From assembly GCA_934183165.1 (NCBI GenBank), contig CAKPRZ010000004.1, positions 5,998-69,997 on the forward strand: a stretch of 64,000 nucleotides of DNA, given 5' to 3'. The stretch comes from an uncultured Bacilli bacterium (GTDB lineage Bacteria; Bacillota_I; Bacilli_A; RF39; UBA660). Positions within the stretch are counted from its first letter, which is position 1, and each line of letters opens with the position of its first letter. The notes beneath the pieces are model-generated. The model made no database searches, had not been told where the DNA came from, and worked only from the letters and a program-made list of their open reading frames with translations. Below, one piece after another: positions 2,268-25,017 of the stretch. The translations under genes were made by a program, and so were the position numbers.

Positions 2268-5117
2268 ATGAATAATGATTATACTAACAATAATGATTTT
2301 AATGGAAGCTATACAAATAATCAACCAGGTAGTTATTTTGATGATAATTACAGTAATGATAATGACCCAAAAGATAATTTGGATGACAGTTTATATAATG
2401 ATGGTGAGGATAAAAGACCTAAATTAGTAATTATTATAGTAGGAATTGTAGTATTAGTAATTTTGATATTAATATTTATGTTTGCTTGTTCTAAAATAAA
2501 TAAGAAAAGTAATAATAACAACTTAAGTAACATTTCAGTTACTAATGGAGAACTAACTCCTTCATTTAATAAAGGTAATTTAGAATACGCAGTTGCAGCA
2601 AGTGAAGATATAGTTTCAATATCATGTAGTAGTGAAAGTTCTAAAGCAACAACTGAAGGATGCAATAAAAGAATTTATTTAACTGATACATGCATCGAAC
2701 ATAAAATTATAGTTAGAGCCCAGGATAAATCAGTAAAAGAATATAAATTAAATATTTGTAAGCAAGATAAGAATGCTCCAATTATTAAGAATGTAGTTTT
2801 ATCTCCTAATGGTTATAGTAAAAATGAGGTAAAAGTTACAGTAGATGTTGAAAGTGTTTCTCCTTTACATGATGAAGCATACAGCATGGATGGTGGAATT
2901 ACTTGGCAAAAGGAAAATGTATTTACTTTGACTGAAAATAAAAAAATAGAAATTAAAGTAAGAAATGTAAATAATACTGAAAGTGCGGTAGTGGAAAAGG
3001 AAATAAATACTATTGATAAAACTAATCCTACTGTAAAAGTTTCTGGAAGTATAAATAGTGGAAGTTCTACATATTCAAATGTTGAATTAAATGCAGAAGT
3101 TGATCCACAGTCAACGTTAAGTGGCTATAAATATCAATGGTATAGAGGAAATAGTAAAATAAAAGGTGCGACACAATCGACTTATTTAGCAACAAGTAGT
3201 GGAACATATAAAGTGGTTGTAACAACTGGTGCTGGAAATTCTGCTACTTCTAATAAATATGTAGTTAATAAAAAGAGTAGTGGAGGATCATCTGGTAATA
3301 ATGGTAATAATTCAAATAACTATTCTATTAAAATTAACGCAGTAAAAGGCAATCCAAGTAATTGGACAAGTCAAGATGTAACTTTATCAATAAATGCACA
3401 AGCTAGCAAAGGATTACACAGTAGTGCTTATTCATTTGATGGAGGTAAGACATATCAAAAAAGCAATAGTAAAAAATTCAGTAAAAATCAAACTGTTAAT
3501 ATAGTTGTAAGAGATAAAAATGGAAATAAAACAACATGGAAAGTAGAAATAAATAAGATTGATAAAACGACACCAAATGTAAGTATAAGTGGAAGTCATT
3601 ATATAGGAAACACTTTAACAGCAAATGTAAAGCCTAATAGTTGTGCTAGTGGTTATAAATATCAGTGGTATGAGAATGGAACAGCTATTAGTGGTGCTAC
3701 AAGTAAAACATATAAAACTAATAAAGTTGGTACATATAAAGTTATTGTAACAACAGGCGCTGGTAAATCGGGAAGTGCTAGTGTTTCCGTATCTAATAAA
3801 GTAACAGCTAGTGTTTCTATAAAAAGTAGTGTTACAAGCGGCAAATGGACTAATCAAAATGTTAAATTAACAGCTAGTATTACTAATGGTAGTGCTTCAC
3901 GATATGAATGGTATAAAAATAATAGTAAATATTCTGCTTGTACTACTAATACTTGTACTATTTCATCTGATCAAGAGGCAACCTACAAAGTAAGAGCAAT
4001 TACAACGTCTGGGGATACAACTACTTTTTCTGGAGTTATTTCTGTTAAGGTAGATAAAAAAAAGCCACAATTGGAACTTAAATTAACACTAGGAAGTTAT
4101 GATGGTTCAAAGTATACTCCAGGGTCAGTAGCTAGTAAGGCAGTTTACGTTTCAGCCGTTGCACGAGATAATATGAAAATGGATAATATGCTTTTCCAAT
4201 ACTTAGCGAGTGATTCTAAAAATAATCAATGGTATAGTCATCCAACTAAAGCATGGTCAAGTTCTACTATAAGTGGTAAGAGTGCTTATTCAAAAGTATA
4301 TTTTAATGATAATACTACATATCCATTTGTAGTAAGAGCAACTGATGCTGCTGGTAATTATACAGATGTTAAAGCAACTATTATTATAAACAAAAATCAA
4401 TCAACACCTACACCTGAAGTTAATTTGAAGGCTCCAACAATAGCATTAAGTCATAGTAGTAATTTTAATGTTCCATATACTGGAAATATAACATTTACTT
4501 TAAAAAATACTAATTCTGTTGGAACTTTGCAATACAAATTAGGTAATGGAAGTTGGACAAACTATTCAGGCAAAGCAACTACATTATTGAGTAGTACTGG
4601 ATCACAAACAGTACATGCAAGGGTATCATATAACGGAAAAACATCAAGTGAGGCTAAATCAACAGGTTATTGTAACAAAGATATTCCAACACAGGATAGA
4701 AATAATAATGGTGTAGATTCAGGTAATAAATGTTGGTTCCAATTAACTATGAAACATAATGGTTCATCATTGCCAAGTGGTGTTACCAAAAATAGATATT
4801 ATTATGCATATTGGAAGGCAACTCCAACCAATGATACTTCAAATAAATATTGGAATACAAGTGGTTATGAATCAAAATTAAGAAAGGAATGTGGTTATTA
4901 TCCACCACAGGGAGTAAAAATATTTGATTCAAAAAGTTCAAATGTCACAACAAAGCTTTATCAGAAATCTTCTAAGCAATATTATTGTTTTGCAATAAAA
5001 GAATATAGAGCAAATGATATTACTTCTGTTAACCGCTGGAAAGTATGGTATAAAATGTCAAATACAGGAGCAACATGTTCTGCATCAGCTTATACTAGTC
5101 AAAAATATGATGGGTAA
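2268..5117 (+). CDS. Large membrane-anchored surface protein with cadherin-like and tandem Ig-like beta-sandwich repeats
   Basis: N/D/Y-rich N-terminus, then a single TM (LVIIIVGIVVLVILILIFMFA). Cadherin-like beta-sandwich signature (SVTNGELTPSFNKGNLEYAVA). Alternating repeated modules (aYSxDGGxTxQK...IDKTxPxV and GYKYQWY...GTYKVxVTTGAG). Cys-containing C-terminal region. Confidence 0.8.
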   Translation: MNNDYTNNNDFNGSYTNNQPGSYFDDNYSNDNDPKDNLDDSLYNDGEDKRPKLVIIIVGIVVLVILILIFMFACSKINKKSNNNNLSNISVTNGELTPSFNKGNLEYAVAASEDIVSISCSSESSKATTEGCNKRIYLTDTCIEHKIIVRAQDKSVKEYKLNICKQDKNAPIIKNVVLSPNGYSKNEVKVTVDVESVSPLHDEAYSMDGGITWQKENVFTLTENKKIEIKVRNVNNTESAVVEKEINTIDKTNPTVKVSGSINSGSSTYSNVELNAEVDPQSTLSGYKYQWYRGNSKIKGATQSTYLATSSGTYKVVVTTGAGNSATSNKYVVNKKSSGGSSGNNGNNSNNYSIKINAVKGNPSNWTSQDVTLSINAQASKGLHSSAYSFDGGKTYQKSNSKKFSKNQTVNIVVRDKNGNKTTWKVEINKIDKTTPNVSISGSHYIGNTLTANVKPNSCASGYKYQWYENGTAISGATSKTYKTNKVGTYKVIVTTGAGKSGSASVSVSNKVTASVSIKSSVTSGKWTNQNVKLTASITNGSASRYEWYKNNSKYSACTTNTCTISSDQEATYKVRAITTSGDTTTFSGVISVKVDKKKPQLELKLTLGSYDGSKYTPGSVASKAVYVSAVARDNMKMDNMLFQYLASDSKNNQWYSHPTKAWSSSTISGKSAYSKVYFNDNTTYPFVVRATDAAGNYTDVKATIIINKNQSTPTPEVNLKAPTIALSHSSNFNVPYTGNITFTLKNTNSVGTLQYKLGNGSWTNYSGKATTLLSSTGSQTVHARVSYNGKTSSEAKSTGYCNKDIPTQDRNNNGVDSGNKCWFQLTMKHNGSSLPSGVTKNRYYYAYWKATPTNDTSNKYWNTSGYESKLRKECGYYPPQGVKIFDSKSSNVTTKLYQKSSKQYYCFAIKEYRANDITSVNRWKVWYKMSNTGATCSASAYTSQKYDG

Positions 5118-5118
5118 C

Positions 5119-5146
5119 AAAAAAGCACATTGTGCTTTTTTTTATT
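5119..5146 (+). terminator. Rho-independent terminator
   Basis: aaaagcacattgtgctttttttt immediately after the stop. Confidence 0.6.
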
Positions 5147-5164
5147 AAAAAAACATGATATAAT
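5136..5164 (+). promoter_or_regulatory. Putative promoter with extended -10 (TGaTATAAT) upstream of the ncRNA region
   Basis: tgatataat at 5156-5164. The -35 is weak. The TG extension could compensate. Confidence 0.35.
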
Positions 5165-5745
5165 GTCATAGAAATGGCGCATTATTCTAGTCAATACATT
5201 ATTACGAAGACGAGGGTAAAATATCGTTAAATAGCATACCTGTGAAGCGTCTGGTGTTTGCTTTATGTGCCCAACATAGGGTGAATGCTGGATTTGAAGA
5301 ATCTATGGGCGATCGTAATGGCATACGGCAACCGACCCATTTATTCGTGGAGACCTATTCTTGTGGGAAGATCTTTGGATACTTCTTACGACTTAGGATT
5401 AAACCTATTTTGTAGTGAAAGCTATGGATAGAGTAGCTAGACTTGAGTGATAATAGGGAATAGAGACAACTAAAATTTGGCGTACACCATTATTTTAGTA
5501 TCGCTACTTGAAACTATTATTGCAAAAAAGTATAAGTAATAGGTGGTATTGTTGGGGAAAACCTCTAGAATGTAGATTGATATAGGATTGCAGTGTGCAC
5601 TAAGTGGCAATCAAGTCATAGATAAGGAGACTTACTATTTATTCTTTTAAAAGGGAACTGCTATACTGGTAACAGTAAGTAAGAATAAGGGAAATCCAAC
5701 TTGACCTAAGGTACAAGGTTTACTATATTAATGCCATTTCATTAA
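5150..5745 (+). ncRNA. ole: Large structured non-coding RNA, candidate OLE (ornate, large, extremophilic) RNA
   Basis: About 600 nt with no ORF above roughly 40 aa on either strand. GC is clearly higher than in the flanks (GC-rich runs such as gggcgatcgtaatggcatacggcaaccgacc). It lies immediately upstream of a small 4-TM protein gene. Confidence 0.5.
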
Positions 5746-5757
5746 TATGGTGATTAT

Positions 5758-6345
5758 ATGAATAAGAAAACTTATAAAGAAAAATACTCAAAAAAAGTGG
5801 ATAAAAAGAAAATTAGTAATAAAAAAAATGTTGATCTACATTGGATTTTGACAATTACTATCACTGCTTTTTTGATATCAATGCTTTTTTCATTTTTATC
5901 GGAATCTATAATATCTAATGTAGGTGCTGTTGTTAGTGTATTGTTATTAATTATTGTTATTTTGATAGGCGTTATGTTTGATATGATTGGAATAAGCGTT
6001 ACAGTTGCTGATATCAAGACATTTAATTCGATGGCTACTAAAAGAGTTAAAGGTGCATCTTTAGCAGTTAAATTCATTAAGAATGCCGAAAAGTTGTCTA
6101 GTTTTTGCAATGATGTTATTGGTGATATTTGTGGAATAATTAGTGGAGCTCTTGCTTCTTCTATTTCTGTAATATTAGTAAACAAATTTAATTTGAATTT
6201 ACTCGCTACAACCCTTGCTACAACGGGAGTAGTAGCGTCATTAACTATAGGGGGAAAAGCCTTAGGAAAAGGATTTGCAATTAACAAAAGTAATGTTATT
6301 TTATATCATTTTTCTAAAGTTGTATCAATTTTTTATGGAAGGTAA
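5758..6345 (+). CDS. oapA: Small 4-TM membrane protein, candidate OLE-associated protein OapA
   Basis: 195 aa with a basic N-terminus and four predicted TM helices. It sits directly downstream of the ORF-free structured region. RBS ggtga. Confidence 0.5.
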   Translation: MNKKTYKEKYSKKVDKKKISNKKNVDLHWILTITITAFLISMLFSFLSESIISNVGAVVSVLLLIIVILIGVMFDMIGISVTVADIKTFNSMATKRVKGASLAVKFIKNAEKLSSFCNDVIGDICGIISGALASSISVILVNKFNLNLLATTLATTGVVASLTIGGKALGKGFAINKSNVILYHFSKVVSIFYGR

Positions 6346-6353
6346 GTAGTAAA

Positions 6354-6929
6354 ATGAAAAAGAAGTTATTAGTAAGTATTATTATTTTATCTATTATTGC
6401 TATCTTATTGGGTAGTATTATAGGAATAAAAAGAATTATCAAAAGTTATAAACTTGATCAAAAAACAACTGGTGAAATAGTATCAAAAATAAACAATGAA
6501 TATTCTGATTTTGAGAGTAAAATTAGTAATTATAATAAAGATTTAACTGAACTTATAGAAATATTAAATACTAGTTCGTATTATCAAAAAATTTATAAAA
6601 ATCAAGAAAAAATAATAAATTTATTAGATAGAGTAACAAAAGAAGTAAAAGAACTATCTTCTTATAATATTTTAAAAGAAAATTGTAATTTGAAATTCGC
6701 TGATGGAAAAGCATCAAGAGCCTGTAAATCTTTTTCTCAAACATATGAAAAAAGTGTTAATGTTTATGTTGACGTAGTAATTGCTTATAATGATATGGTA
6801 TCTAAAGTTAATGAGTTAGATGTTTCAAAAGAGAAGATTCAAACTTATGAAGGTTACTTTAAAAATTATATTGATTATAATAGTGATGGTAAATTTTTAG
6901 GAAAAGGAATAAAAGCAGGTGAGGAGTAA
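6354..6929 (+). CDS. Hypothetical membrane-anchored protein
   Basis: N-terminal TM (LLVSIIILSIIAILLGSII). RBS ggaagg. No recognisable domain. Confidence 0.6.
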   Translation: MKKKLLVSIIILSIIAILLGSIIGIKRIIKSYKLDQKTTGEIVSKINNEYSDFESKISNYNKDLTELIEILNTSSYYQKIYKNQEKIINLLDRVTKEVKELSSYNILKENCNLKFADGKASRACKSFSQTYEKSVNVYVDVVIAYNDMVSKVNELDVSKEKIQTYEGYFKNYIDYNSDGKFLGKGIKAGEE

Positions 6930-6931
6930 TT

Positions 6932-8176
6932 ATGAAAAGGGATAAAGGACGAAAACTATTATTAATAGGGTTATTGTTATTACCAATCACAGCTTGTTTA
7001 TTTGTTGTATCCTTATTTAGTAGTGAACTAATTAATAAAACTTTAAAAATTGTGATGTTAATACTGTCTGTTATATTTTTAATTTTTATAATAAGTGGAA
7101 TTATAGTTTCCTTTAAACAAAAAAATAGAAAACTTAAAAAAGTTTTTAGAGTCATTTTGATACTTTTCTTTTTGTTTTACTATGTTGGTGCAACCGGAGT
7201 GATGGTCTTACTTTATGGTCCAAATCATAAGTTTAGAAACTGGCTTATAACTTCTGCTATGACTACTATGAATCATCAGTACTTTGCAACATGGTTTTAT
7301 AATGAAACAACAGTTAATGAGGTTTTAAATAATAATGTTGTTGTTGAAATTAAGGAAGAAACAAATCAAAATTTGGTTACAGTTGGTAATATTAATTTTA
7401 ATAAAGTTATATATAAAAATGAATATGATGAAGAAGTATTGACTAAAGACGATGATAATGATTTATATAAAATAATAGATATTAAAAGAGATGGTTATAG
7501 AGGAAAACTAGCAGTAATCTATGATCCATCAAAAGTTAAAGTTGGAACAGCTAAGAAAATAGGAAAAGATTTAAAAGTAAATAGTGGACAATATTTAATA
7601 GATATAACAAAAAGATATAATGCTGTTATTGGAGTTAATGCTAGTGGATTTGTTGATCCTGGTTATAATAGTACAGGAGGAGTACCAAGAGGTTTTGTTA
7701 TATCAGAAGGTAAATTGGTTGTTGATAATGTTTGGGGTCGTAATTATGGTGGCTTAGTAGGCTTTGATAAAAATAATAAATTGGTTTTATCTACTAGTAT
7801 GACCGCTAAACAAGCTTTGGCAAATGGAATTAGGGACGCTGTTCAATATGGTCCATATTTAGTTGTTAATGGTAAATCATCATATGTTAAAGGTAATGGT
7901 GGATGGGGAATTGCTCCTAGAACTGCAATTGGTCAAAGAGATGATGGAATAGTTTTACTTTTAACAATAGACGGAAGACAAACTGCCTCTTTAGGTGCTG
8001 ATATGGGTGATATGGCACAAATAATGATTGATTATGGTGCTGTTAATGCCGCTAATATGGATGGTGGTACTTCAACTGCTATGGCATTAAACAGCAAATT
8101 AATTTCTAATCCTAGAAATGGTGGATTTCAGCCAAAAACAAGGCCAATACCTGATGCTTGGATTGTCGTTAAATAA
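6932..8176 (+). CDS. Membrane-anchored phosphodiester glycosidase family protein (NAGPA/DUF2233-like)
   Basis: N-terminal TMs. C-terminal motifs GVNASGF, GIAPRTAIGQRDDGIVLLLTIDGRQ and NAANMDGGTSTAM, typical of the phosphodiester glycosidase family. RBS ggtgaggag. Confidence 0.75.
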   Translation: MKRDKGRKLLLIGLLLLPITACLFVVSLFSSELINKTLKIVMLILSVIFLIFIISGIIVSFKQKNRKLKKVFRVILILFFLFYYVGATGVMVLLYGPNHKFRNWLITSAMTTMNHQYFATWFYNETTVNEVLNNNVVVEIKEETNQNLVTVGNINFNKVIYKNEYDEEVLTKDDDNDLYKIIDIKRDGYRGKLAVIYDPSKVKVGTAKKIGKDLKVNSGQYLIDITKRYNAVIGVNASGFVDPGYNSTGGVPRGFVISEGKLVVDNVWGRNYGGLVGFDKNNKLVLSTSMTAKQALANGIRDAVQYGPYLVVNGKSSYVKGNGGWGIAPRTAIGQRDDGIVLLLTIDGRQTASLGADMGDMAQIMIDYGAVNAANMDGGTSTAMALNSKLISNPRNGGFQPKTRPIPDAWIVVK

Positions 8177-8234
8177 AAGTTGAAAATCAACTTTTTTTTT
8201 GTTATAATTTTTATTGATAATAGGAGGCTATTTT

Positions 8235-10382
8235 ATGGCTACAAAAAAGAAAAAAAGAATAAATTTTAGGCTTATATTTGCTTTAATAATAAATATTGTG
8301 TTAATTGCTAGTGGAGGATATTTAGTATCTTATATTATTAAACTAAATGATATTGAAAATACTTTACGATTACTTTTTTCAATACTATTTTGTATTATTA
8401 TGTTATTACTTGTTATTTTTAACTTGAAATTCAGTTCAAAATCAAAAAAAATCAAATATGGATTTTCGATATTATTTACATTACTTATAATAGCAGTTTC
8501 TATTTTTGCTAATTATAATTTGAGTAAAGTATTTACAACACTTAATAAATTAACTAGTAAAAATGAGACAGTATCTATTAGTTTAGTAACATTGAAAAGC
8601 AATAATATTGCTTCTGCAGAAAAGGTTCCAAAGAATGAAAAAATCGCATCGATATCTTCTGAGGTTGTAAGTCAAATTGACGAATTAACAAGTGGTTTTT
8701 TTAAAAAATATAATATTATAAATGAAATTTCTTACTATGATGGATATTTAGAGATTTTTAGTGATTTATTTGAAGGAAAAATTAAATATGCATTTTTACC
8801 TGTTGATTATGAAACGATTTTATCATCTCATGAAAAGTATTCTGGTGATGGGGATAAATTAAAATCACTTGCTAGTTATGAGATAAAACAAAAGGCAGAA
8901 CAAACAAAACAAAAAAGTGTTTTAGAGCCATTTACAGTATTGTTAATGGGTGTAGATACGTTATCTTCATCATATAATGCTGATACTCTTTTGGTTGTTA
9001 CATTTAACCCTAAAACATTATCTGCTACTATGCTTAGTATTCCACGTGATACTTATACAACTATTGCATGTACTAATAAAAAACACAAAATCAATTCATC
9101 TGGTTGGAGTGGTGATAAATGTGTAATTAAAACAGTTGAATCTTATATAGGTATTGATATAGATTATTATTTTAAAGTTAACTTCAAGGGTGTTGTTGAA
9201 CTGGTTGATTTACTTGGTGGTGTTGAAGTAGATGTGCCTTATTCATTCTGCGAACAAAATAGTAGCCGTAAATGGGGTAAAAACACAATTTATGTTGATA
9301 AAGGAGTACACAAATTAAATGGAGAACAAGCTTTAGCGCTTACTAGAAATAGACATTATTGGCCTAATAAATGTAGTAAAAAATATACAACTGAAGGAGT
9401 AAGAAGCGACTTTACTAGAGGACAAAATCAACAATTAGTGTTTAAAGCAATGTTAAATGAAGTAAAGAAAATAAATAATATTAATACAATATATAAAATG
9501 TTAGATTCACTTGGTAATAATATGGTTACTAATATGTCAACAGATACAATTTTATCTTTATATAATGTTGGAAAAGAAATATTAATAAAAATGAATTCAG
9601 GTGATAGAGATATATCACAGTTGATTAATATTCAAAAACTTAAATTTACAAGTTATACAAAAACTATAAGAGTAGGCAATTTAAATTTATCTATGGTTAT
9701 AAATCATGATAATAGTGTTAAAGTAGTAACTGATGCTATGAAAGTTAATTTGGGTTTAAAAGAAGCAAAAGTTATTAAAACGTTTGAATTTGATATAAAT
9801 AATGGATATGAAGAAACGGTTATAGGTAGTAAAGTGTATGGGGGAAGTACTATAGATACTGATGATAATGAGGCTTTATTACCTAACTTCGTTAGTAAAA
9901 CTGCTGACTATGTAGAAGAGTGGTGTAATAAAAACAATGTAAAACTAAGAATACAATACAAAAATGTAACTAGTGCTAGGTATTCTGATGGAGAAGTTCT
10001 ATCACAAACAATAAAGCCTAACACAAGGATTTCTAGTATTAAAACATTAAGTATAACAGTTGCAAAAGTAACAGAAGAAATAGAAAAAGATGAACAACAG
10101 GAACCGGTAAAAGAAACGTTTACCTATAAAAAATGTTTGGAAGAATCGTATAAAAATGATTCAAGATGTTTAGTTTCAAATTATGTTGGTAAAGATCTTT
10201 CAGTATTTAAATCTTGGATAAATAAAATTAATTTGGGACTTAAAGTTGATTATATAGAAAACAGTAAATCTGATAAACCAGCTAATACTATAATTAGTCA
10301 GAATATTTCAGGAGTTAGCATATATGAGTTAAATAATAGTGGTAATGTTTTAGAAATAACATACTCTACAAAAGAAGGATAA
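8235..10382 (+). CDS. LCP family (LytR-CpsA-Psr) cell-wall glycopolymer ligase with long C-terminal extension
   Basis: TM at the N-terminus. LCP core (VLLMGVDT..DTLLVVTFNPKT..LSIPRDTYT..YFKVNFKGVVELVDLLGGVEVDVP). Start chosen at the ATG after RBS aggagg. The listed ORF starts 21 nt earlier. Confidence 0.85.
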   Translation: MATKKKKRINFRLIFALIINIVLIASGGYLVSYIIKLNDIENTLRLLFSILFCIIMLLLVIFNLKFSSKSKKIKYGFSILFTLLIIAVSIFANYNLSKVFTTLNKLTSKNETVSISLVTLKSNNIASAEKVPKNEKIASISSEVVSQIDELTSGFFKKYNIINEISYYDGYLEIFSDLFEGKIKYAFLPVDYETILSSHEKYSGDGDKLKSLASYEIKQKAEQTKQKSVLEPFTVLLMGVDTLSSSYNADTLLVVTFNPKTLSATMLSIPRDTYTTIACTNKKHKINSSGWSGDKCVIKTVESYIGIDIDYYFKVNFKGVVELVDLLGGVEVDVPYSFCEQNSSRKWGKNTIYVDKGVHKLNGEQALALTRNRHYWPNKCSKKYTTEGVRSDFTRGQNQQLVFKAMLNEVKKINNINTIYKMLDSLGNNMVTNMSTDTILSLYNVGKEILIKMNSGDRDISQLINIQKLKFTSYTKTIRVGNLNLSMVINHDNSVKVVTDAMKVNLGLKEAKVIKTFEFDINNGYEETVIGSKVYGGSTIDTDDNEALLPNFVSKTADYVEEWCNKNNVKLRIQYKNVTSARYSDGEVLSQTIKPNTRISSIKTLSITVAKVTEEIEKDEQQEPVKETFTYKKCLEESYKNDSRCLVSNYVGKDLSVFKSWINKINLGLKVDYIENSKSDKPANTIISQNISGVSIYELNNSGNVLEITYSTKEG

Positions 10383-10386
10383 AAAA

Positions 10387-10411
10387 AGTACTGATAAATT
10401 TCAGTACTTTT
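10387..10411. terminator. Bidirectional terminator between convergent genes
   Basis: agtactga-taaatt-tcagtact hairpin flanked by A/T tracts on both sides. Confidence 0.65.
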
Positions 10412-10417
10412 AAAATG

Positions 10418-11044
10418 TTATTTTAAATTGCTTGCTTTTACAACTTCCATTGTTTTATCGTTTTTAGCTACAACAACTTGATATTTGCTTGGATAACCTA
10501 AATCCTTTTTATATTTTATATCCATATCAATATAATATGCATCGGATAATGTCTGTTTGTTATATTTAAAACTATTTTTGTTTGTTTTACTAATGGTTAC
10601 TTCAATAACTTCTGGTAATTCTTGTTTTCTATCACCATATACGTTACTTTGTATAGAACTATACATTCCACTCTGTGCTATTGATATAAAATCATCTTGA
10701 TAACTTTTATATACGAATTGGATACCACCAATATCACTACTTGTTAATTTATTTGATAAAGTAAATAAGTCAGTTACAAATAATTGGGCAACTTTTTTTG
10801 CGTAATCTTCTTCAACAACTGGATTCTTTTGTAAAATGTCTTTTAATTCATCAAATAGTGATTTCATATATTTTGTAGAATTGCTTTTTAAACTATAATC
10901 GTAGTTACTAATGTTATCTACTACAGTTACTTTTTTTCCACTACCTGTTGTTTCCTTTAATCTAGTATAAATTATATAACTTGTTCCTATAAACAGTATT
11001 ATAATAACTAATATTATTATTACTTTAAATATCTTCTTTCCCAT
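10418..11044 (-). CDS. Hypothetical membrane-anchored protein
   Basis: N-terminal TM (KVIIILVIIILFIGTSYIIY). It is the only convincing minus-strand gene in the first 48 kb. Confidence 0.6.
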   Translation of the reverse strand: MGKKIFKVIIILVIIILFIGTSYIIYTRLKETTGSGKKVTVVDNISNYDYSLKSNSTKYMKSLFDELKDILQKNPVVEEDYAKKVAQLFVTDLFTLSNKLTSSDIGGIQFVYKSYQDDFISIAQSGMYSSIQSNVYGDRKQELPEVIEVTISKTNKNSFKYNKQTLSDAYYIDMDIKYKKDLGYPSKYQVVVAKNDKTMEVVKASNLK

Positions 11045-11252
11045 TATATCACCATATAAATTCTAACATATATAATATTTATTTTCAATTTAAATTCTTT
11101 TTTGTTAGTAATAAAATTAATTTGAATTTATTGTATAGGCTTGAATAAAGCAGTTGATTTATGATAGAATTTATAATTGTAAGATAGATATTTGTATTAA
11201 TTTGTCGAATTTGAATAAAGAGGGTAATTAAAATAGGTTTAGGAGTGATTTT

Positions 11253-12701
11253 GTGAATAAAGTAAATAAACCAAATGAAGATTTGGAAATAATAGATATA
11301 TTTGAAGAGAATAACAATATCAGTAACAAAAATAATAGTGGTAAAGCAAGTAGTAAAAATAATAAAGTAAATAATAGTAAAACAAATAATAAAAAGACAA
11401 AAGCTGTGCGTAAACTAAAAAAAGGATTACTTGTTCAGACTGTTTTTTGTACTTTAAGTATTATTTTTATATTGGTTTGTTGTGTTTTTTATGGATCTAG
11501 GTTAGTAAAGTATTACAAAATATATAATCCCAAAGATGAGAGTGGAAAAGCCATTTCATTGATGGGTAATCATATTATAAGTACTTCATCAATTGTTTAT
11601 GAAGGTGAAGGATTATATTTAGTTAATGGAAATTATTTGTATAAGGGTGAAAAAGTAAATAATTATGTTAAATTTTCTAATTTAATATGGCGTATTATAA
11701 AAATTAATGAAGATAAATCATTAGATGTTATATTAGATCAACCTATTAATAATTTAATGTGGAACAATAATGTTACTGATTATTCAAAGTCTGATATTAA
11801 TAAATATTTAAATGATGAATTTTTGAAAATACTTGATAAAAATATGCTTTCTACAACCGCAGTATGTAAAGATAAAGTTGATGATGTTTCCAAAATAAGT
11901 TGTAAAGATATAGATACTTCTAATTATGTTAGATTATTAAATATAGATGAATTCTTAAATAGTAAAGCAACGGATAGTTCATTTATTTCTAACACAAATA
12001 ATATTTGGTTAACAACAAGAGGAAATACTAGAGCATGGACAACAAATAATAATAGTTTATCATATAGCGAAACAACAAATACTTATAGCGTAAAACCTGT
12101 TATTACATTAAAAAACTCTAATCAAATAACTAGTGGAGATGGAAGTAAAGACAATCCATATGTTGTTGGTAATAATAAAAATGAAATAACAGTTGGTAGT
12201 CATATTAAATTAGATAATGATATATGGACAGTTTATTCTTTAAAAGATGAAAAAATATATTTATCTCTTACTAATTTATATAAAAAAGGAACAAAAACAT
12301 ATCGCTTTGATTTAAAGGAGAATAAGTATAATGTTGAAAACACATCATCTTTAGCTAAATACTTAAATAATGATTTTTATAACAGTTTGAGTTATAAAAA
12401 TTTATTACTAGATACAGTATGGTATACTGGTGAATATAATAACAGCTATAAAGATATATATAGTAGTCAAATAAATGCTAAAGTAGGATTAAGTAGTGTT
12501 ACAGATCTAAAATTTGATAATGTTCAAAATTACTATTTGTTGAATGGTACAAAAGAAAATAGGATATATTTATATGGTGATACATTAATAGAGTCAAAAC
12601 CTACATTATCAAGAGCAATAAAGCCATCTATTTGTATTAAAAAAGGAAAGTTAAAACAAGGACAAGGAACTTTAGAAGATCCTTATGTATTGGAGGGATA
12701 A
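11253..12701 (+). CDS. Hypothetical type-II membrane protein with N/K-rich N-terminus
   Basis: GTG start. Low-complexity N-terminus, then a TM (LVQTVFCTLSIIFILVCCVFYG). Large extracytoplasmic domain with no recognised family. Confidence 0.6.
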   Translation: MNKVNKPNEDLEIIDIFEENNNISNKNNSGKASSKNNKVNNSKTNNKKTKAVRKLKKGLLVQTVFCTLSIIFILVCCVFYGSRLVKYYKIYNPKDESGKAISLMGNHIISTSSIVYEGEGLYLVNGNYLYKGEKVNNYVKFSNLIWRIIKINEDKSLDVILDQPINNLMWNNNVTDYSKSDINKYLNDEFLKILDKNMLSTTAVCKDKVDDVSKISCKDIDTSNYVRLLNIDEFLNSKATDSSFISNTNNIWLTTRGNTRAWTTNNNSLSYSETTNTYSVKPVITLKNSNQITSGDGSKDNPYVVGNNKNEITVGSHIKLDNDIWTVYSLKDEKIYLSLTNLYKKGTKTYRFDLKENKYNVENTSSLAKYLNNDFYNSLSYKNLLLDTVWYTGEYNNSYKDIYSSQINAKVGLSSVTDLKFDNVQNYYLLNGTKENRIYLYGDTLIESKPTLSRAIKPSICIKKGKLKQGQGTLEDPYVLEG

Positions 12702-12703
12702 TA

Positions 12704-13707
12704 TGAAAAAGTTTACAATTGTGATGATTATAATAGATGTTATAGTTGCAACTTGCTTTGTTGTTGTTTATGCCTTTCCAGGATTAAGAAATAAAATAAT
12801 ATCAACGGCAATGATTACTAAAACACATCAATATATTGCCTATGTATTTTATAGCGAAGAAACTATTAGTGAAGTAACTTCTCAAAATAAATATATTCCA
12901 CTTACAGATAATGTTAAACTTGATGATATAGTTATTAATACAGCCGAGAGAGATAGTTATGATAATAAGTATGATGAAGAAATTTTAACAAGAGATCCAA
13001 ATAATGAAGATTATAAATATATAAAAGTAAAAGTCGGCGGTAAATATGATGGACATTTAGTTGCAATATATGATCCATCAAAAGTTAAATTGATTGCCTC
13101 AAAAACATTTAATACAGGTCATGGGCAAGAACGTATAAAAGATATGTGTAAAAGATCTAATGGTATAGTTTGTATTAATGGTGGTAGATTTAACGATACA
13201 ACAGGATATGGTAGCGATATTCCAAAAGGCACTCTTATAAAAGATAGTAAGGTTATATGGTCTGATACTAAAAAAGCTACTAATTTAATAGGATTTAATA
13301 AAGAGGATAAATTAGTTTTAACAAAGAAAACTGCAGATGATGCTATAGCTATGGGACTTAGAGATGCCCTTGAATTTGGACCATTCTTGATTGTAAATGG
13401 TAAAAAATTACAATATGAATCAAAAGCTGGTGGATATGATAGAGCAGCACGTGTAGCAATAGCACAAAGAAAAGATGGAGTAGTATTATTCCTAGTTACT
13501 GAAGGAGTCCATACTAATGGGCCAACTTTGGTTGAAGTTATAGAATTATTAGAAAAATATGGAGCATACAATGCTGCTAACTTAGATGGTGGAACTTCAG
13601 CTCAATTAGTTATAAAAGATAAACTTATCAATAATCCTCTTACTGTTTATGGTAAAAAAGTAACCGATGGTAGACGTGTAGTAAGTGGTTTTGGACTTAT
13701 TAAGTAG
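12704..13707 (+). CDS. Phosphodiester glycosidase family protein (paralog of 6932..8176)
   Basis: Motifs IVCINGGRF, RVAIAQRKDGVVLFLVTEG and NAANLDGGTSAQL. Start chosen at the ATG after RBS ggaggg. The listed ORF start overlaps the upstream gene. Confidence 0.75.
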
Positions 13708-13712
13708 GTGAT

Positions 13713-14870
13713 GTGATGAAAAAAAGTAAAATTTTTGTTATATTGCTTCTGACAATATTAGGTATATCATGTATTGCTGGTGGAATTTATTTTAAAGATT
13801 ATTCTAAAACTCCTATTAAGAAAATATATGATGATATTCCTTATCCAGTTGTAAAAGAAAATAAACTTTCTTTAATTATGGTAGGCGATGCTCTTATACA
13901 TGGGGCAGTTTATGCTGATGCTAAAACAAGTGCTAATAAGTATAATTTCTTACCTATGTTTACTGAAGTTAGAGATGTATTTAAAGGATATGATTTGGCT
14001 TTTTATAATCAAGAAACAGTTTTAGGAGGATCTGAAATAGGTATTTCAACATATCCTAGATTTAATTCACCATACGAAGTTGGGGATGCCTTTTTAGATA
14101 TGGGATTTAATTTAGTTAGTTTAGCAACTAATCATACTCTTGATAGAGGATTTAAGGCTATAGAAAATTCTAGAAAATATTGGAATACAAAGAAAGATTC
14201 AGTGATAGCAGCTGGTTCTTATGCAACTCAGGAAGAAAAAGATGAAGTAATAGTAAAAGAAAAAAATGGTATTAAATATGGACTTTTAGCATATACAACA
14301 TTAACTAATGGATTAGTAAGAGATAAGGGAAAAGAATATTCTTTAAATGTTTTTGATAAAGAACTTGTTAAAAAAGATGTTGAAAAATTAAAAGAAAAAG
14401 CTGATTTAATAATTGTTTCAATGCATTGGGGTGTTGAATATTCTCATTCTGTTTCAGCAGAACAAAAAGAAATTGCTAAATATTTATCTGATCTAGGTGT
14501 AAATGTTGTAATTGGAACTCATCCTCATGTTGTTGAACCTGTAGAATTCGTTGGAAATACTTTAGTAGTTTATTCTTTGGGGAATTTTATATCTGCGCAA
14601 ATAGGAGTAGAAAAGTTAACAGGCTTAGTAGTTGATGTTAATATCTCAAAGACAACAATCGATGATAAAGTATATATAAATGTTGAGGAGCCAAGAGCGG
14701 ATTTGGTATACACATGTAAAGCTAAACAGTGTGGTCATTTTAAGGTTTATCCTTATAATAAATTAAATAATAAAATATTACCAAATAAAGATACCTTATT
14801 TAATAAATATATGGGAATTGTAAGGAATCTCGACAAAAACATTAAAACTATTTATACAAAGGAAGCATAG
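13713..14870 (+). CDS. CapA/PGA_cap family metallophosphatase-like protein (capsule/poly-gamma-glutamate biosynthesis family)
   Basis: Motifs MVGDALIHG, LATNHTLDRG, SMHWGVEYS and IGTHPHVVEP..VVYSLGNF. Confidence 0.8.
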   Translation: MMKKSKIFVILLLTILGISCIAGGIYFKDYSKTPIKKIYDDIPYPVVKENKLSLIMVGDALIHGAVYADAKTSANKYNFLPMFTEVRDVFKGYDLAFYNQETVLGGSEIGISTYPRFNSPYEVGDAFLDMGFNLVSLATNHTLDRGFKAIENSRKYWNTKKDSVIAAGSYATQEEKDEVIVKEKNGIKYGLLAYTTLTNGLVRDKGKEYSLNVFDKELVKKDVEKLKEKADLIIVSMHWGVEYSHSVSAEQKEIAKYLSDLGVNVVIGTHPHVVEPVEFVGNTLVVYSLGNFISAQIGVEKLTGLVVDVNISKTTIDDKVYINVEEPRADLVYTCKAKQCGHFKVYPYNKLNNKILPNKDTLFNKYMGIVRNLDKNIKTIYTKEA

Positions 14871-22387: not shown

Positions 22388-23803
22388 ATGCATATAGGTA
22401 TAGATATAGATAATGTTTTATCGAATTTCAATGAGATATTATTAAATAAATATATTGAGCATGATAAAAGTATTAATGGAAAAGGTATAGTTAATCAAGA
22501 TGTGTATATTAGAGATATGTTTAATTGGGATAAAGAATATGAAGAAAAATTTTACAAAGAAAATATTGAGTATTTTGCAAGCCTATTTGAACCGATTGAA
22601 GAATGTTCTAAATATGTAAAATTATTAAAAGAAGAAGGAAATACAATTTATATCATTAGTGGTCGAGACAATGGTGAATATTCTAACCCATATAAAATGA
22701 CCATTGATTGGTTAAAAAAATATGATATTGTTTATGATAAATTATTTTTAGTAGATGCTTATAATAGTCATTCAAAAACAGAAATATGTTTAGAATACAA
22801 TATTGATGTAATGATAGATGATTCTAAAAGAATGTGTAAGGACATAAAGGATAATGGTATTAGAGCATTACTTATGGATACACCATATAATAGAGATACA
22901 AATGAATTTGAAAGAGTTAATTCATGGAAAGAAATTTATAACAAATTATCTAATAAAAAAATTAATGTGATACTTGATACAGATACTTATAATGAATGTG
23001 ATGACCAATTTGCATTATCATATTTAATTAAGTCACAAGATATGTTTAATATTGAGGCAATTACAGTAGCACCATATTCTCATACAAAAAGAGATGTAAA
23101 AGTAATAGATGGACAAGAGTTGAGTTATAATGAAATTTTAAAAATATGTAATTGGTTAAATTTTGATACCATTGATAAAGTATTTAAAGGATCAATGGAC
23201 TATATTCAAAATGGATATGATGAAAATAATGATGCAGTAAATAAAATAATTGAAGTGGCGCTTAAAAACGATAAAACTTATATATTAGGAATTGGAGCTA
23301 TAACTAATATTGCTTTAGCAATAAAAAAAGAACCTAAGATAATTGATAGAATAGAAATCATTTGGTTAGGTGGAAATGAAATAGAATATAAAGATAATTT
23401 AGAATATAATTTCAAACAAGATATAGAGGCTGTAAAAATAGTGTTTGATTCTACAGTGAAAATGACTATACTACCTTGCAAAAATGTAGTATCAGATTTA
23501 AGAATAGATATAGCTGAATTAAAAAGTAAATTAGATAATAGGAAAGAATTAAATAAATATTTAATTGAGAGATTTTATAATGATGGATATCATGGAATAC
23601 AAGAAACAAGAGTAATATGGGATATATCAGTAATAGCATATATGATAAATAAAAATTGGTTTGAAACAGAAAAAATTAGTTGTCCCAATATCAAGGAAGA
23701 TAGTTCTTATGAATTAACTGATAATAGACATAGTATAACTTTTATAACTAAATTAGATAGAGATAGAATATATGAAGATTTATTTAGAAAGTTAGGAGTA
23801 TGA
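22388..23803 (+). CDS. Fusion protein: N-terminal 5'(3')-deoxyribonucleotidase (HAD, NT5C-like) plus C-terminal nucleoside hydrolase (IU-NH family)
   Basis: N-terminal HAD motif I (MHIGIDIDNVL) and NT5C-like region. The C-terminal half starts with VILDTDTYNECDDQFAL, the DxDxxxDD nucleoside-hydrolase signature. Confidence 0.7.
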   Translation: MHIGIDIDNVLSNFNEILLNKYIEHDKSINGKGIVNQDVYIRDMFNWDKEYEEKFYKENIEYFASLFEPIEECSKYVKLLKEEGNTIYIISGRDNGEYSNPYKMTIDWLKKYDIVYDKLFLVDAYNSHSKTEICLEYNIDVMIDDSKRMCKDIKDNGIRALLMDTPYNRDTNEFERVNSWKEIYNKLSNKKINVILDTDTYNECDDQFALSYLIKSQDMFNIEAITVAPYSHTKRDVKVIDGQELSYNEILKICNWLNFDTIDKVFKGSMDYIQNGYDENNDAVNKIIEVALKNDKTYILGIGAITNIALAIKKEPKIIDRIEIIWLGGNEIEYKDNLEYNFKQDIEAVKIVFDSTVKMTILPCKNVVSDLRIDIAELKSKLDNRKELNKYLIERFYNDGYHGIQETRVIWDISVIAYMINKNWFETEKISCPNIKEDSSYELTDNRHSITFITKLDRDRIYEDLFRKLGV

Positions 23804-23806
23804 ATT

Positions 23807-24415
23807 ATGAGATTAACAAGCAAAGATGCAAGGAATCTATTAGAAGAAGAAAGAAAAAAATCAAATGATGATAGATGGATAGAACATTGCTTATGTGTTG
23901 GTAATGCTGCAGGTAAAATAGCAGAAGCATTAAATGAAAAAGGTTATAATATAGATATAGATAAGACAATTACTCTAGGTTATTTACACGATATTGGTAA
24001 GTATAATGGAGAATCACATGGACATGTTATGAGAGGATATGAATATTTAAAAGAAAGAGGATATGATGATGAATATTGTAATATATGTTTAACACATTCT
24101 TATTTAAATAATGATATAGTGTGTACTGCTGGGGGAGTCCCTAATCCAAATGATAATCCTTTTTTAACAGATTTTATAAAAAATCATGAATATACTATAG
24201 AAGAAAAATTAATAAATTTATGTGATTTGATGTGTCCACAAGGGAACGAAGTATTTACAATTGATAAAAGATTAATTGATATTATGATTAGAAGAGGAGC
24301 TTATTCAAATACACAATATCATATTAAAGAAACTTACAAACTGAAAGAATATTTTGATAGTTTATTAGGATATAATCTCTATGATTTATTTCCTGAAATA
24401 AAAGAAAATTTGTAG
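23807..24415 (+). CDS. HD/HDIG domain phosphohydrolase
   Basis: Motifs HCLCVGNAAGKIAE and LGYLHDIGK. Confidence 0.7.
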   Translation: MRLTSKDARNLLEEERKKSNDDRWIEHCLCVGNAAGKIAEALNEKGYNIDIDKTITLGYLHDIGKYNGESHGHVMRGYEYLKERGYDDEYCNICLTHSYLNNDIVCTAGGVPNPNDNPFLTDFIKNHEYTIEEKLINLCDLMCPQGNEVFTIDKRLIDIMIRRGAYSNTQYHIKETYKLKEYFDSLLGYNLYDLFPEIKENL

Positions 24416-24423
24416 GTGATATT

Positions 24424-25017
24424 ATGCGAATAGGAATAGATATAGATGGCGTATTAACCGACATAGAACAATGGCAGTTAGATTATGGAAGTAAGTTTTA
24501 TTTTGAAAAATATGGTAAAGAAATACAAAATAACGAAGGATATGAAACAACAGAAATATTTAAAGTTGATAGTAAATTAGATGATGAGTTTTGGACTGAG
24601 TATTTTAAAGATTATTCGATAAATGTCGATGTTAGAAAATTGGCTAGTGAAGTAATTAAAAAACTAAAACAAGATGGTAATGAAATTTATATTATTACCG
24701 CAAGAGGTAGCTTTTTATCACATTCTGCAAATGTAATGCTTTTTGAAGAAAATAAAAACATTGTTTTAGAATGGCTTAGAAAAAATGAAATTGAATATGA
24801 CAAAATAATATTTAGCCCAGAAGATAAACTTAGTATATGTTTAGAAAATAATATTGATGTAATGATAGAAGATAAAGTTGACAATATAAACAAAATATCA
24901 ACAAGGATTCCAGTTATATGTTTTCATGCAGGATATAACAAAAATTGTAAAGGTAACAATATTTTCAGATGTTATAGTTGGTATGATATATACAGTAAAA
25001 TAAATAGTATTAAATAA
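24424..25017 (+). CDS. 5'(3')-deoxyribonucleotidase-like HAD phosphatase (paralog of N-domain of 22388 gene)
   Basis: MRIGIDIDGVL HAD motif I. Organisation collinear with the N-terminal half of the 22388 gene (IYIITARG, DVMIEDK). Confidence 0.7.
   Translation: MRIGIDIDGVLTDIEQWQLDYGSKFYFEKYGKEIQNNEGYETTEIFKVDSKLDDEFWTEYFKDYSINVDVRKLASEVIKKLKQDGNEIYIITARGSFLSHSANVMLFEENKNIVLEWLRKNEIEYDKIIFSPEDKLSICLENNIDVMIEDKVDNINKISTRIPVICFHAGYNKNCKGNNIFRCYSWYDIYSKINSIK

What the first reader, a model, noticed from the sequence alone, without database searches (positions are those of the whole stretch)
5150..6345. Candidate OLE RNA - OapA locus
About 600 nt contain no ORF above roughly 40 aa on either strand. 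The stretch is GC-enriched (about 38-40%) against 25-30% GC flanks. It lies between a terminator and an RBS and sits immediately upstream of a 195-aa protein with four TM helices. OLE RNAs are about 600-nt structured RNAs of anaerobic Firmicutes. They are found directly upstream of oapA, which encodes a small 4-TM partner protein. The match in size and gene arrangement is striking. A putative extended -10 promoter (TGaTATAAT, 5156-5164) lies at its 5' side. Even if it is not OLE (for example if it is ROOL or another large RNA), an unannotated 0.6-kb structured RNA is worth attention.
Basis: partly seen in the sequence, partly recalled or inferred. Interest (0 to 1): 0.75.

Follow-up and report, generated by a model that had tools for sequence, protein, structure and literature searches.

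The report
OLE RNA with its OapA partner

Summary
Rfam's OLE model (RF01071) matches window 5158-5753 (+) end to end at 357.7 bits (threshold 50, E 1.8e-101). It is the only Rfam family found in the 64 kb, so ROOL, GOLLD and HEARO are excluded. The RNA keeps 137 of 159 model base pairs and 206 of 249 highly conserved nucleotides. Across 24 relatives, 87.7% of pair cells are paired (39-46% with slid partners) and 108 of 152 pairs show compensatory changes. It is the full-length type: P7, P8, the OapB site and the k-turn elements are all present.

The 195-aa ORF at 5758-6345 behaves as OapA. It is homologous to the ORF directly after OLE in about 100 of 120 diverse genomes. It has an invariant DxxxD motif, no proline and sub-threshold CNNM similarity. 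Its predicted fold best matches CorB/CorC transmembrane domains.

A terminator and an extended -10 promoter precede the RNA, and no terminator separates it from oapA. The neighbours are cell-envelope genes. This is a known family with a routine new instance, so interest is low. Function is inferred from Halalkalibacterium halodurans.

The parts
5113..5146 (+). Intrinsic terminator of the upstream 949-aa gene (stop codon ends at 5117). It isolates OLE from upstream transcription.
   Evidence: hairpin plus U tract, -10.7 kcal/mol, z -3.8, 0 of 200 shuffles fold as well.
5156..5164 (+). Extended -10 promoter element TGATATAAT. The inferred transcription start is near 5171.
   Evidence: Read directly from the sequence. 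TATAAT-like boxes lie at the same offset in several relatives. The first paired nucleotide of the RNA is 5172. Promoter activity is inferred, not shown.
5158..5753 (+). OLE RNA (Rfam RF01071), full-length type. The first ~13 nt of the match are promoter DNA.
   Evidence: 357.7 bits, E 1.8e-101, model positions 1-616; 137 of 159 pairs canonical and 206 of 249 conserved nucleotides kept; covariation; 83-90% nt identity to relatives, against 71-77% for oapA.
5172..5178 (+). 5' strand of the terminal closing helix (AAAUGGC). It pairs with 5733-5739 (GCCAUUU).
   Evidence: 20 of 24 relatives have the exact reverse complement in the 3' tail, 19 of them at the same offset. Five different pentamer pairs occur (ATGGC, ATGGT, GTGGT, GTGGA, GTGGC).
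5733..5739 (+). 3' strand of the terminal closing helix.
5192..5205 (+). 5' strand of the long-range elongated helix I assign to P3/P3.1. It pairs with 5536-5551.
   Evidence: the two sub-helices are 80-83% paired in 24 sequences, and 11 of 13 pairs show changes on both sides.
5536..5551 (+). 3' strand of the P3/P3.1 helix. The same-species polymorphism T5544G falls in its internal loop.
5239..5300 (+). P5 hairpin with flanking k-turn elements (candidate OapC site): C5240-G5299 closing pair, bulge U5241-U5243, G5244.A5298, A5245.A5297.
   Evidence: C, GA and AG are invariant or nearly invariant in 24 relatives. The motif definition is from PMC9723947. The assignment was made by inspection and is inferred.
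5354..5430 (+). The two hairpins I equate with P7 (5354-5397) and P8 (5405-5430). These are the stems missing in 'variant 2' OLE RNAs.
   Evidence: both helices aligned to the model. helices 5 and 6 (84.5% and 92.6% paired).
5618..5638 (+). P13 hairpin, the OapB binding site: GAGA (GNRA) tetraloop at 5627-5630 and bulged U5623.
   Evidence: structure projection. Features are defined in PMC7936274. helix 16 (89.4% paired, 8 of 8 pairs compensatory).
5749..5753 (+). Shine-Dalgarno-like GGTGA for oapA. It overlaps the 3' tail of the Rfam OLE match.
   Evidence: No stable hairpin or terminator lies between OLE and the ATG (second fold).
5758..6345 (+). oapA: a 195-aa CNNM-like membrane protein. 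The DxxxD motif is at residues 119-123 (nt 6112-6126).
6354..10382 (+). Tightly packed downstream genes, probably co-transcribed: a 191-aa TM/coiled-coil protein (6354-6929), a NAGPA phosphodiester glycosidase (6932-8176) and an LCP-PASTA glycopolymer transferase (8214-10382). A hairpin follows at 10384-10411.
   Evidence: There is no + strand terminator before 10384, but a strong promoter-like site at 8180-8208 could drive the LCP gene separately. That these genes belong to the OLE unit is an inference.

Best explanation
Window 5158-5753 encodes a full-length OLE (ornate, large, extremophilic) RNA, and 5758-6345 encodes its membrane partner OapA.

Transcription most likely starts about 7 nt after the extended -10 box, near 5171, just downstream of the terminator of the preceding gene. 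It then runs through the RNA into oapA without a terminator, so the RNA and its partner are made from one transcript. The roughly 570-nt RNA folds into the conserved OLE architecture. A terminal helix (5172-5178 with 5733-5739) and a long P3 helix (5192-5205 with 5536-5551) bracket a large central domain (P4a to P10). A 3' domain (P12 to P14.1) carries the GNRA-tetraloop/bulge site for OapB.

By analogy with Halalkalibacterium halodurans, a dimer of the four-helix, CNNM-like OapA binds the RNA and holds it at the membrane. There the ribonucleoprotein helps the cell cope with stresses such as excess Mg2+, cold, short-chain alcohols and poor carbon sources.

Shown here: family membership of the RNA, structural conservation and covariation, homology and hallmark features of OapA, and the transcription-signal layout. 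Inferred: the transcription start, processing, RNA-protein binding, membrane localisation and physiological role in this uncultured host.
For: RNA family:
- RF01071 at 357.7 bits, gathering score 50, E 1.8e-101, model positions 1-616. It is the only family found in the window.
- 137 of 159 model pairs are canonical and 206 of 249 conserved nucleotides are identical.
- 87.7% of pair cells are paired against 39-46% for slid controls; 108 of 152 pairs are compensatory; 0 of 500 shuffles reach the observed values.
- the P3 and closing helices covary.
- relatives L125-L128, L012, L043 and L059 score 360-393 bits, and classical hosts score 506-522 bits, all with complete model coverage.
- OLE nucleotide identity is 83-90% against 71-77% for the adjacent coding gene, and the RNA differs at no more than one position (T5544G) in four same-species metagenome contigs.

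OapA:
- phmmer E 1e-25 to 1e-74 to the ORF downstream of OLE in about 100 of 120 genomes. All of those ORFs carry DxxxD.
- an invariant SSFCNDVIGDICG block.
- CNNM PF01595 at 19.5 bits, below the 28.4 cut-off, as described for OapA in PMC11332333.
- no proline in the protein.
- the AF2 model (pLDDT 78) has 7M1T, 7M1U and 7CFF (CorB/CorC) as its top four PDB matches, with probability 0.99-1.00.

Transcription signals.
Against: - The score is about 150 bits lower than for the two cultured classical hosts scored (Neomoorella stamsii, Alkaliphilus transvaalensis).
- 15 model pairs are non-canonical and 7 are lost. These include the whole small hairpin at model positions 424-435.
- No OapB-like or OapC-like protein was found among the window ORFs scanned. 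Those genes are not expected to be linked to ole, and 64 kb is a small part of a genome.
- There are no expression data. The host is uncultured and not an obvious extremophile.
- The classical isoprenoid/DNA-repair gene neighbours were not found among the flanking ORFs I scanned.
Confidence: 0.95

Rival explanations
1. The 600-nt element acts only in cis, as a long structured 5' leader that regulates oapA and the downstream cell-envelope genes (riboswitch-like or attenuator-like). It is not a stable RNA working as part of a ribonucleoprotein.
For: No terminator lies between the RNA and oapA. The oapA Shine-Dalgarno sequence lies in the 3' tail of the Rfam match. The downstream genes are tightly packed.
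Against: It is a bona fide OLE family member, and in H. halodurans OLE is an abundant RNA that binds OapA, OapB and OapC and localises to the membrane (PMC12265935). The RNA keeps the OapB site and the k-turn. The fold around the RBS shows no stable sequestering hairpin (-2.5 kcal/mol, z 0.31).
Confidence: 0.04
2. It is a different large ornate RNA (ROOL, GOLLD, HEARO or raiA) or a novel structured RNA that only resembles OLE in size and position.
For: None, beyond size and GC enrichment.
Against: One search scanned all 4227 Rfam families at gathering thresholds. Only OLE matched, and it matched full length with E 1.8e-101.
Confidence: 0.005
3. It is a decaying, non-functional OLE relic in a reduced gut genome.
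For: The bit score is lower than in classical hosts. 22 of 159 model pairs are non-canonical or lost. Gut clades are reported to carry reduced OLE variants and often lack OapB and OapC (PMC11332333).
Against: The RNA is more conserved than the adjacent coding gene. Compensatory changes maintain the helices within the gut clade itself. All major stems, the OapB site and the k-turn core are retained. oapA is intact with an invariant DxxxD block.
Confidence: 0.01

Closest known systems
OLE RNA, Rfam RF01071 ('full-length' type of Fernando & Breaker 2024, PMC11332333)
   Same: Complete model coverage and ~600 nt length. The conserved sequence blocks are present (CUAGUCA, GCCCA, AAUGGCAU, GGAGACC, ACUAAGUGG.AAUC, GGGAAAUCC...GACCUAAG). 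P7 and P8 are present. P13 has a GNRA loop and a one-nucleotide bulge. The k-turn core flanks P5. oapA lies immediately downstream.
   Different: The sequence is AU-rich (36% GC) and scores about 150 bits below the two cultured classical hosts scored. The small hairpin at model positions 424-435 is absent, as in the whole gut Bacilli group in alignment A1. The locus has its own terminator and promoter and sits among cell-envelope genes, not in the long H. halodurans-type gene cluster, which is transcribed as one polycistronic RNA (PMC12265935).
OapA (OLE-associated protein A) of Halalkalibacterium halodurans
   Same: A ~195-aa protein with four predicted TM helices, a DxxxD motif, no conserved CNNM proline, weak CNNM (PF01595) similarity and a CorB-like predicted fold. 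It is encoded directly after ole.
   Different: It was compared only with positional orthologs from other genera, not with the H. halodurans protein itself. RNA binding and dimerisation were not tested.
MpfA/CorB/CorC (CNNM-family Mg2+ transporters)
   Same: The transmembrane fold is shared. The top PDB matches are 7M1T, 7M1U and 7CFF.
   Different: The protein has no CBS or CorC/HlyC domains. It has four rather than three TM helices. DxxxD is present and the CNNM proline is absent. The Pfam score is below threshold. It should not be filed as a CNNM transporter.
OLE variant 1 (TANB77) and variant 2 (RF39) of reduced gut bacteria
   Same: The habitat is the same (uncultured gut Bacillota) and the genome is AT-rich.
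   Different: The window RNA keeps P7 and P8 (absent in variant 2). It also keeps a full-size P9 and the P13 OapB site (reduced or lost in variant 1).

Membership tests
OLE RNA (RF01071) | Covariance-model score above Rfam's gathering threshold over the whole model | tested here: met
   357.7 bits against 50, E 1.8e-101, model positions 1-616, not truncated.
OLE RNA (RF01071) | Conserved secondary structure supported by covariation | tested here: met
   137 of 159 pairs canonical; 87.7% paired against 39-46% for slid controls, and 108 of 152 pairs compensatory. Searches support P3 and the closing helix.
OLE RNA (RF01071) | Highly conserved nucleotide blocks (about 25% of positions nearly invariant) | tested here: met
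   206 of 249 upper-case consensus positions are identical. One search lists the invariant columns across 24 relatives.
OLE RNA (RF01071) | oapA immediately downstream on the same strand | tested here: met
   the ORF starts 4 nt after the Rfam match and is homologous to the ORF after OLE in about 100 of 120 genomes.
OLE RNA (RF01071) | Host in Bacillota, typically anaerobic or extremophilic | tested here: inconclusive
   The nearest named homologs come from 'Bacilli bacterium' gut and rumen MAGs. A pyruvate:ferredoxin oxidoreductase gene in the window suggests an anaerobe. No formal taxonomic placement was made.
OLE RNA, full-length type | P7 and P8 present, P9 full-size, GNRA loop plus bulge in P13 (OapB site) | tested here: met
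   hairpins at 5354-5397, 5405-5430 and 5440-5532. P13 at 5618-5638 has a GAGA loop and bulged U5623. The equating of helix names with Rfam helices is my inference from PMC9723947, PMC7936274 and PMC12265935.
OLE RNA | k-turn flanking P5 that binds OapC (C-G pair, 3-nt bulge, sheared G.A pairs) | tested here: inconclusive
   The sequence elements are present and conserved, but they were assigned by inspection. Protein binding cannot be tested here.
OLE RNA | Stable abundant RNA that localises to the membrane through OapA | not testable with these tools
   Needs expression and biochemical data.
OapA | DxxxD motif | tested here: met
   D119-V-I-G-D123 is invariant in 26 homologs. The motif is present in every OLE-linked homolog.
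OapA | About 200 aa with four TM helices and no soluble domains | tested here: met
   helices at 27-55, 57-83, 110-144 and 148-176; hydropathy; the fourth helix is below the KD 1.6 cut-off.
OapA | Distant CNNM similarity (below the Pfam cut-off), no conserved CNNM proline, CorB-like fold | tested here: met
   PF01595 at 19.5 bits against 28.4; zero prolines; 7M1T, 7M1U and 7CFF are the top four matches.
OapA | Sequence homology to H. halodurans OapA (BH2780) | not tested
   The reference sequence was not obtained. Homology was shown instead to positional orthologs in cultured Bacillaceae, Alicyclobacillus, Clostridium, Alkaliphilus and Neomoorella.
CNNM/MpfA Mg2+ transporter | Pfam CNNM above the gathering score, plus CBS pair and CorC/HlyC domains | tested here: not met
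   the score is below the cut-off and there are no CBS or CorC domains. The protein is only 195 aa.
ROOL / GOLLD / HEARO / raiA large RNAs | Match to the corresponding Rfam model | tested here: not met
   none reached the gathering score anywhere in the window.

The most novel reading that the evidence does not exclude
In this gut Bacilli lineage, ole-oapA has become a self-contained transcription unit fused to cell-wall glycopolymer genes (NAGPA phosphodiester glycosidase, LCP-PASTA transferase, PGA_cap). The linkage to NAGPA and PGA_cap survives rearrangements down to 60% OapA identity. If this linkage is functional rather than inherited synteny, it would be genomic support for the recent proposal that OLE domain 2 reaches and senses the cell wall (PMC12265935).
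Probability: 0.15. Interest if true: 0.45.

Novelty: already known. Interest (0 to 1): 0.15.

Why it matters
As a discovery it matters little. OLE RNA has been known since 2006, is in Rfam, and was catalogued in 2,822 Bacillota genomes of GTDB, including gut lineages (PMC11332333). A default Rfam scan finds this copy.

It has modest value in three respects:
- It confirms that the first-stage reader can recognise a large structured RNA from raw sequence alone.
- It documents a full-length OLE, with the OapB site and k-turn intact, in an AT-rich uncultured gut Bacilli bacterium. Reduced variants have been emphasised for such organisms.
- It adds a lineage in which ole-oapA sits beside cell-envelope genes. 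That fits the published suspicion of a link between the OLE complex and the cell wall.

Tried and rejected
- I scanned genome contigs with a conserved OLE pattern, hoping to retrieve H. halodurans for a direct OapA comparison.
- The sequence search of the PDB with OapA gave no hit. NCBIfam gave only a spurious YidC match. Pfam has no OapA model, only the sub-threshold CNNM match.
- The terminator scanner did not report the upstream terminator. Direct folding did.
- Counting the terminal closing helix on the MAFFT alignment gave only 47.6% paired, because of a one-column misregistration. A register-free reverse-complement check resolved it.
- tblastn of the window's neighbouring proteins against the 120 GTDB loci found shared context only in L082. 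Closer relatives had to be fetched through OapA homologs.
- I looked for OapB (KOW/SBB) and OapC (L7Ae/YbxF) among the window ORFs, including all small ones. None was found. About a dozen larger ORFs beyond 44 kb were not scanned.
- I considered and rejected three alternatives: a coding function for the 57-aa ORF at 5242-5415, other large RNA families, and a decaying relic. See the rival explanations.
- I could not build my own covariance model, because OLE exceeds the 400-column limit.

Full report
**Observation.** The region 5150-5757 has no long ORF. The longest are 57 aa (GTG, 5242-5415) and 48 aa (ATG, 5285-5431). It is richer in G+C than its flanks: 36-38% against about 30% upstream and 19-29% downstream. 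The upstream 949-aa gene ends at 5117 and is followed by a hairpin plus U tract at 5113-5146. That hairpin folds at -10.7 kcal/mol, z -3.8, and none of 200 shuffles folds as well. The pattern scanner missed it, probably because the stem can extend into the T run. TGATATAAT lies at exactly 5156-5164 and GGTGA at 5749-5753, 4 nt before the ATG at 5758.

**Identity of the RNA.** A scan of the whole window against all 4227 Rfam families at gathering thresholds gave a single match. It is OLE (RF01071) at 5158-5753 on the + strand, 357.7 bits against a threshold of 50, E 1.8e-101, covering model positions 1-616 without truncation. No ROOL, GOLLD, HEARO or other large-RNA model matched. I projected the model structure onto the sequence. 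137 of 159 consensus pairs are canonical, 15 are non-canonical and 7 are lost. Part of that loss is the complete absence of the small hairpin at model positions 424-435. 206 of 249 highly conserved consensus nucleotides are identical.

**Comparative evidence.** The hosts include Alkaliphilus, Neomoorella, Alicyclobacillus, Pontibacillus, Clostridium, many Oscillospiraceae and many 'Bacilli' or 'Tenericutes' gut MAGs. I aligned the window RNA with 23 relatives of 66-78% identity. On that alignment the projected structure is 87.7% paired, against 39-46% when partners are slid by 1-3 columns. 108 of 152 pairs show changes on both sides, and no shuffle out of 500 reached the observed values.

Two long-range helices are not annotated in Rfam's structure line, and both are supported:
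- An elongated helix at 5192-5205 with 5536-5551, which I equate with P3/P3.1. It is 80-83% paired and 11 of 13 pairs are compensatory.
- A terminal closing helix at 5172-5178 with 5733-5739. In 20 of 24 sequences the 5' pentamer has its exact reverse complement in the 3' tail (19 at the same offset), in five covarying versions.

Closer relatives fetched through OapA homologs (L125-L128) all carry a complete OLE of 362-382 bits. Two cultured classical hosts score 506-522 bits. The RNA is 83-90% identical to these closer relatives while the adjacent oapA coding sequence is only 71-77% identical. Four same-species metagenome contigs differ from the window at no more than one position within the RNA, T5544G, in an internal loop. 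The region is therefore under stronger constraint than the neighbouring gene.

**Which kind of OLE.** Fernando & Breaker (PMC11332333) distinguish three types. Full-length OLE is the first. Variant 1 (TANB77) has short P7-P9 and often lacks the OapB site. Variant 2 (common in RF39) lacks P7 and P8. The window RNA has both hairpins after P6 (5354-5397 and 5405-5430) and a full-size long hairpin at 5440-5532. Its P13 hairpin (5618-5638) has a GAGA tetraloop and a single bulged U at 5623. These are the features that OapB recognises in the crystal structure (PMC7936274). A second GNRA loop, GUAA at 5669-5672, caps the next hairpin. The k-turn that binds OapC is defined by a C-G pair next to a 3-nt bulge followed by sheared G.A pairs flanking P5 (PMC9723947). 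The corresponding nucleotides here are C5240-G5299, U5241-U5243, G5244.A5298 and A5245.A5297, and they are invariant or nearly invariant in the 24-sequence alignment. That assignment is by inspection. Overall this is a full-length OLE, not a reduced variant.

**The protein.** The 195-aa ORF at 5758-6345 has more than 5000 homologs in the metagenome protein collection. The 120 best are listed, and the few that carry names are called hypothetical proteins of 'Bacilli bacterium' or 'bacterium' MAGs, or 'CBS domain containing-hemolysin-like protein'. Pfam gives only a sub-threshold CNNM match, 19.5 bits against a cut-off of 28.4. That is how OapA is reported to behave relative to MpfA.

I extracted the first ORF after the OLE pattern in each of the 120 loci. 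About 100 of them match the window protein with phmmer E 1e-25 to 1e-74, and every matching ORF has a DxxxD motif. Most of the loci without a match are truncated or have an ORF that does not match at all. In the window protein the motif is D119-V-I-G-D123, within an invariant SSFCNDVIGDICG block. The protein contains no proline, consistent with the reported lack of the CNNM proline.

An AlphaFold model (mean pLDDT 78, pTM 0.67) has four long helices plus short connecting helices. Its four best PDB matches are the CorB and CorC transmembrane domains 7M1T, 7M1U and 7CFF, with probability 0.99-1.00. 7M1U is the structure reported as the top match to H. halodurans OapA. I did not compare directly with the H. 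halodurans protein.

**Layout and likely mechanism.** The upstream terminator and the extended -10 box indicate that ole has its own promoter. The first paired nucleotide is 5172, consistent with a start near 5171. No terminator or stable hairpin separates the RNA from oapA, so the two are probably co-transcribed. The next genes follow with gaps of 8, 2 and 37 nt. They are a 191-aa TM/coiled-coil protein, a NAGPA phosphodiester glycosidase and an LCP-PASTA transferase. No + strand terminator occurs until a hairpin at 10384-10411, although a strong promoter-like site at 8180-8208 may drive the LCP gene separately.

By analogy with H. halodurans (PMC12265935), OapA dimers should bind the RNA and hold it at the membrane. 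There the complex contributes to tolerance of Mg2+, cold, alcohol and poor carbon sources. None of that can be tested here.

**Context.** The classical neighbours (isoprenoid, DNA-repair and related genes) did not appear among the flanking ORFs I scanned. In relatives with 80, 77, 63 and 60% OapA identity, ole-oapA is followed within one to four genes by NAGPA and PGA_cap genes, even where the other flanks differ. Among the 120 GTDB loci only L082 shares this. Cell-wall genes are already listed among OLE's common neighbours, so this fits the literature. It could also be inherited synteny.

**Verdict.** The feature is a routine member of a known, curated RNA family with its known partner gene. 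Novelty is nil to minimal and interest is low (0.15). The only mildly new angle is the lineage-specific linkage to cell-envelope genes.

Noticed in passing
window 6354-14870; L125-L128: In this gut Bacilli clade, ole-oapA is followed by cell-envelope genes. The window has a 191-aa TM coiled-coil protein, NAGPA (414 aa), LCP-PASTA (722 aa), then a DUF6273-like 482-aa protein, a second NAGPA (340 aa) and PGA_cap (385 aa). Linkage to NAGPA and PGA_cap persists at 60% OapA identity even though the other flanks differ.
   Followed up: partly
window 5573-5575 (Rfam model positions 424-435): The small hairpin between the CCUAGA.UGU block and the 3' domain is absent from the window RNA. It is also absent from all the gut Bacilli-type relatives in alignment A1. 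It is present in three other members of alignment A1 (L062, L085, L052; two are named Ruminiclostridium and Clostridium).
   Followed up: partly
L126 7482-7619; L127 7480-7656; window 5242-5415: Gene callers placed spurious 45-58-aa ORFs inside the OLE RNA of related contigs. The window has the equivalent 57-aa GTG ORF. These are most likely annotation artefacts.
   Followed up: partly
window 5544: The only polymorphism within the RNA among four same-species metagenome contigs is T5544G. It lies in the internal loop of the P3 helix.
   Followed up: yes
window 2268-5117: The 949-aa upstream protein has a low-complexity N-terminus, one TM segment and only faint Ig-like/BNR/PKD matches. It is about 52% identical in L125 and L126 at the same position. 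It is probably a surface protein of unknown function.
   Followed up: partly
window 30560-34669, 27205-29262, 36088-37542: Three large ORFs (1369, 685 and 484 aa) have no Pfam match at E 1e-5.
   Followed up: no
window 10384-10411: A perfect 11-bp hairpin (AAAAGTACTGA...TCAGTACTTTT) lies between the convergent LCP gene and the 208-aa minus-strand gene. It looks like a bidirectional terminator.
   Followed up: no
window 22388-25017: A cluster of nucleotide-salvage-type genes on the + strand: an NT5C plus nucleoside hydrolase fusion (471 aa), an HD-domain protein and a second NT5C.
   Followed up: no
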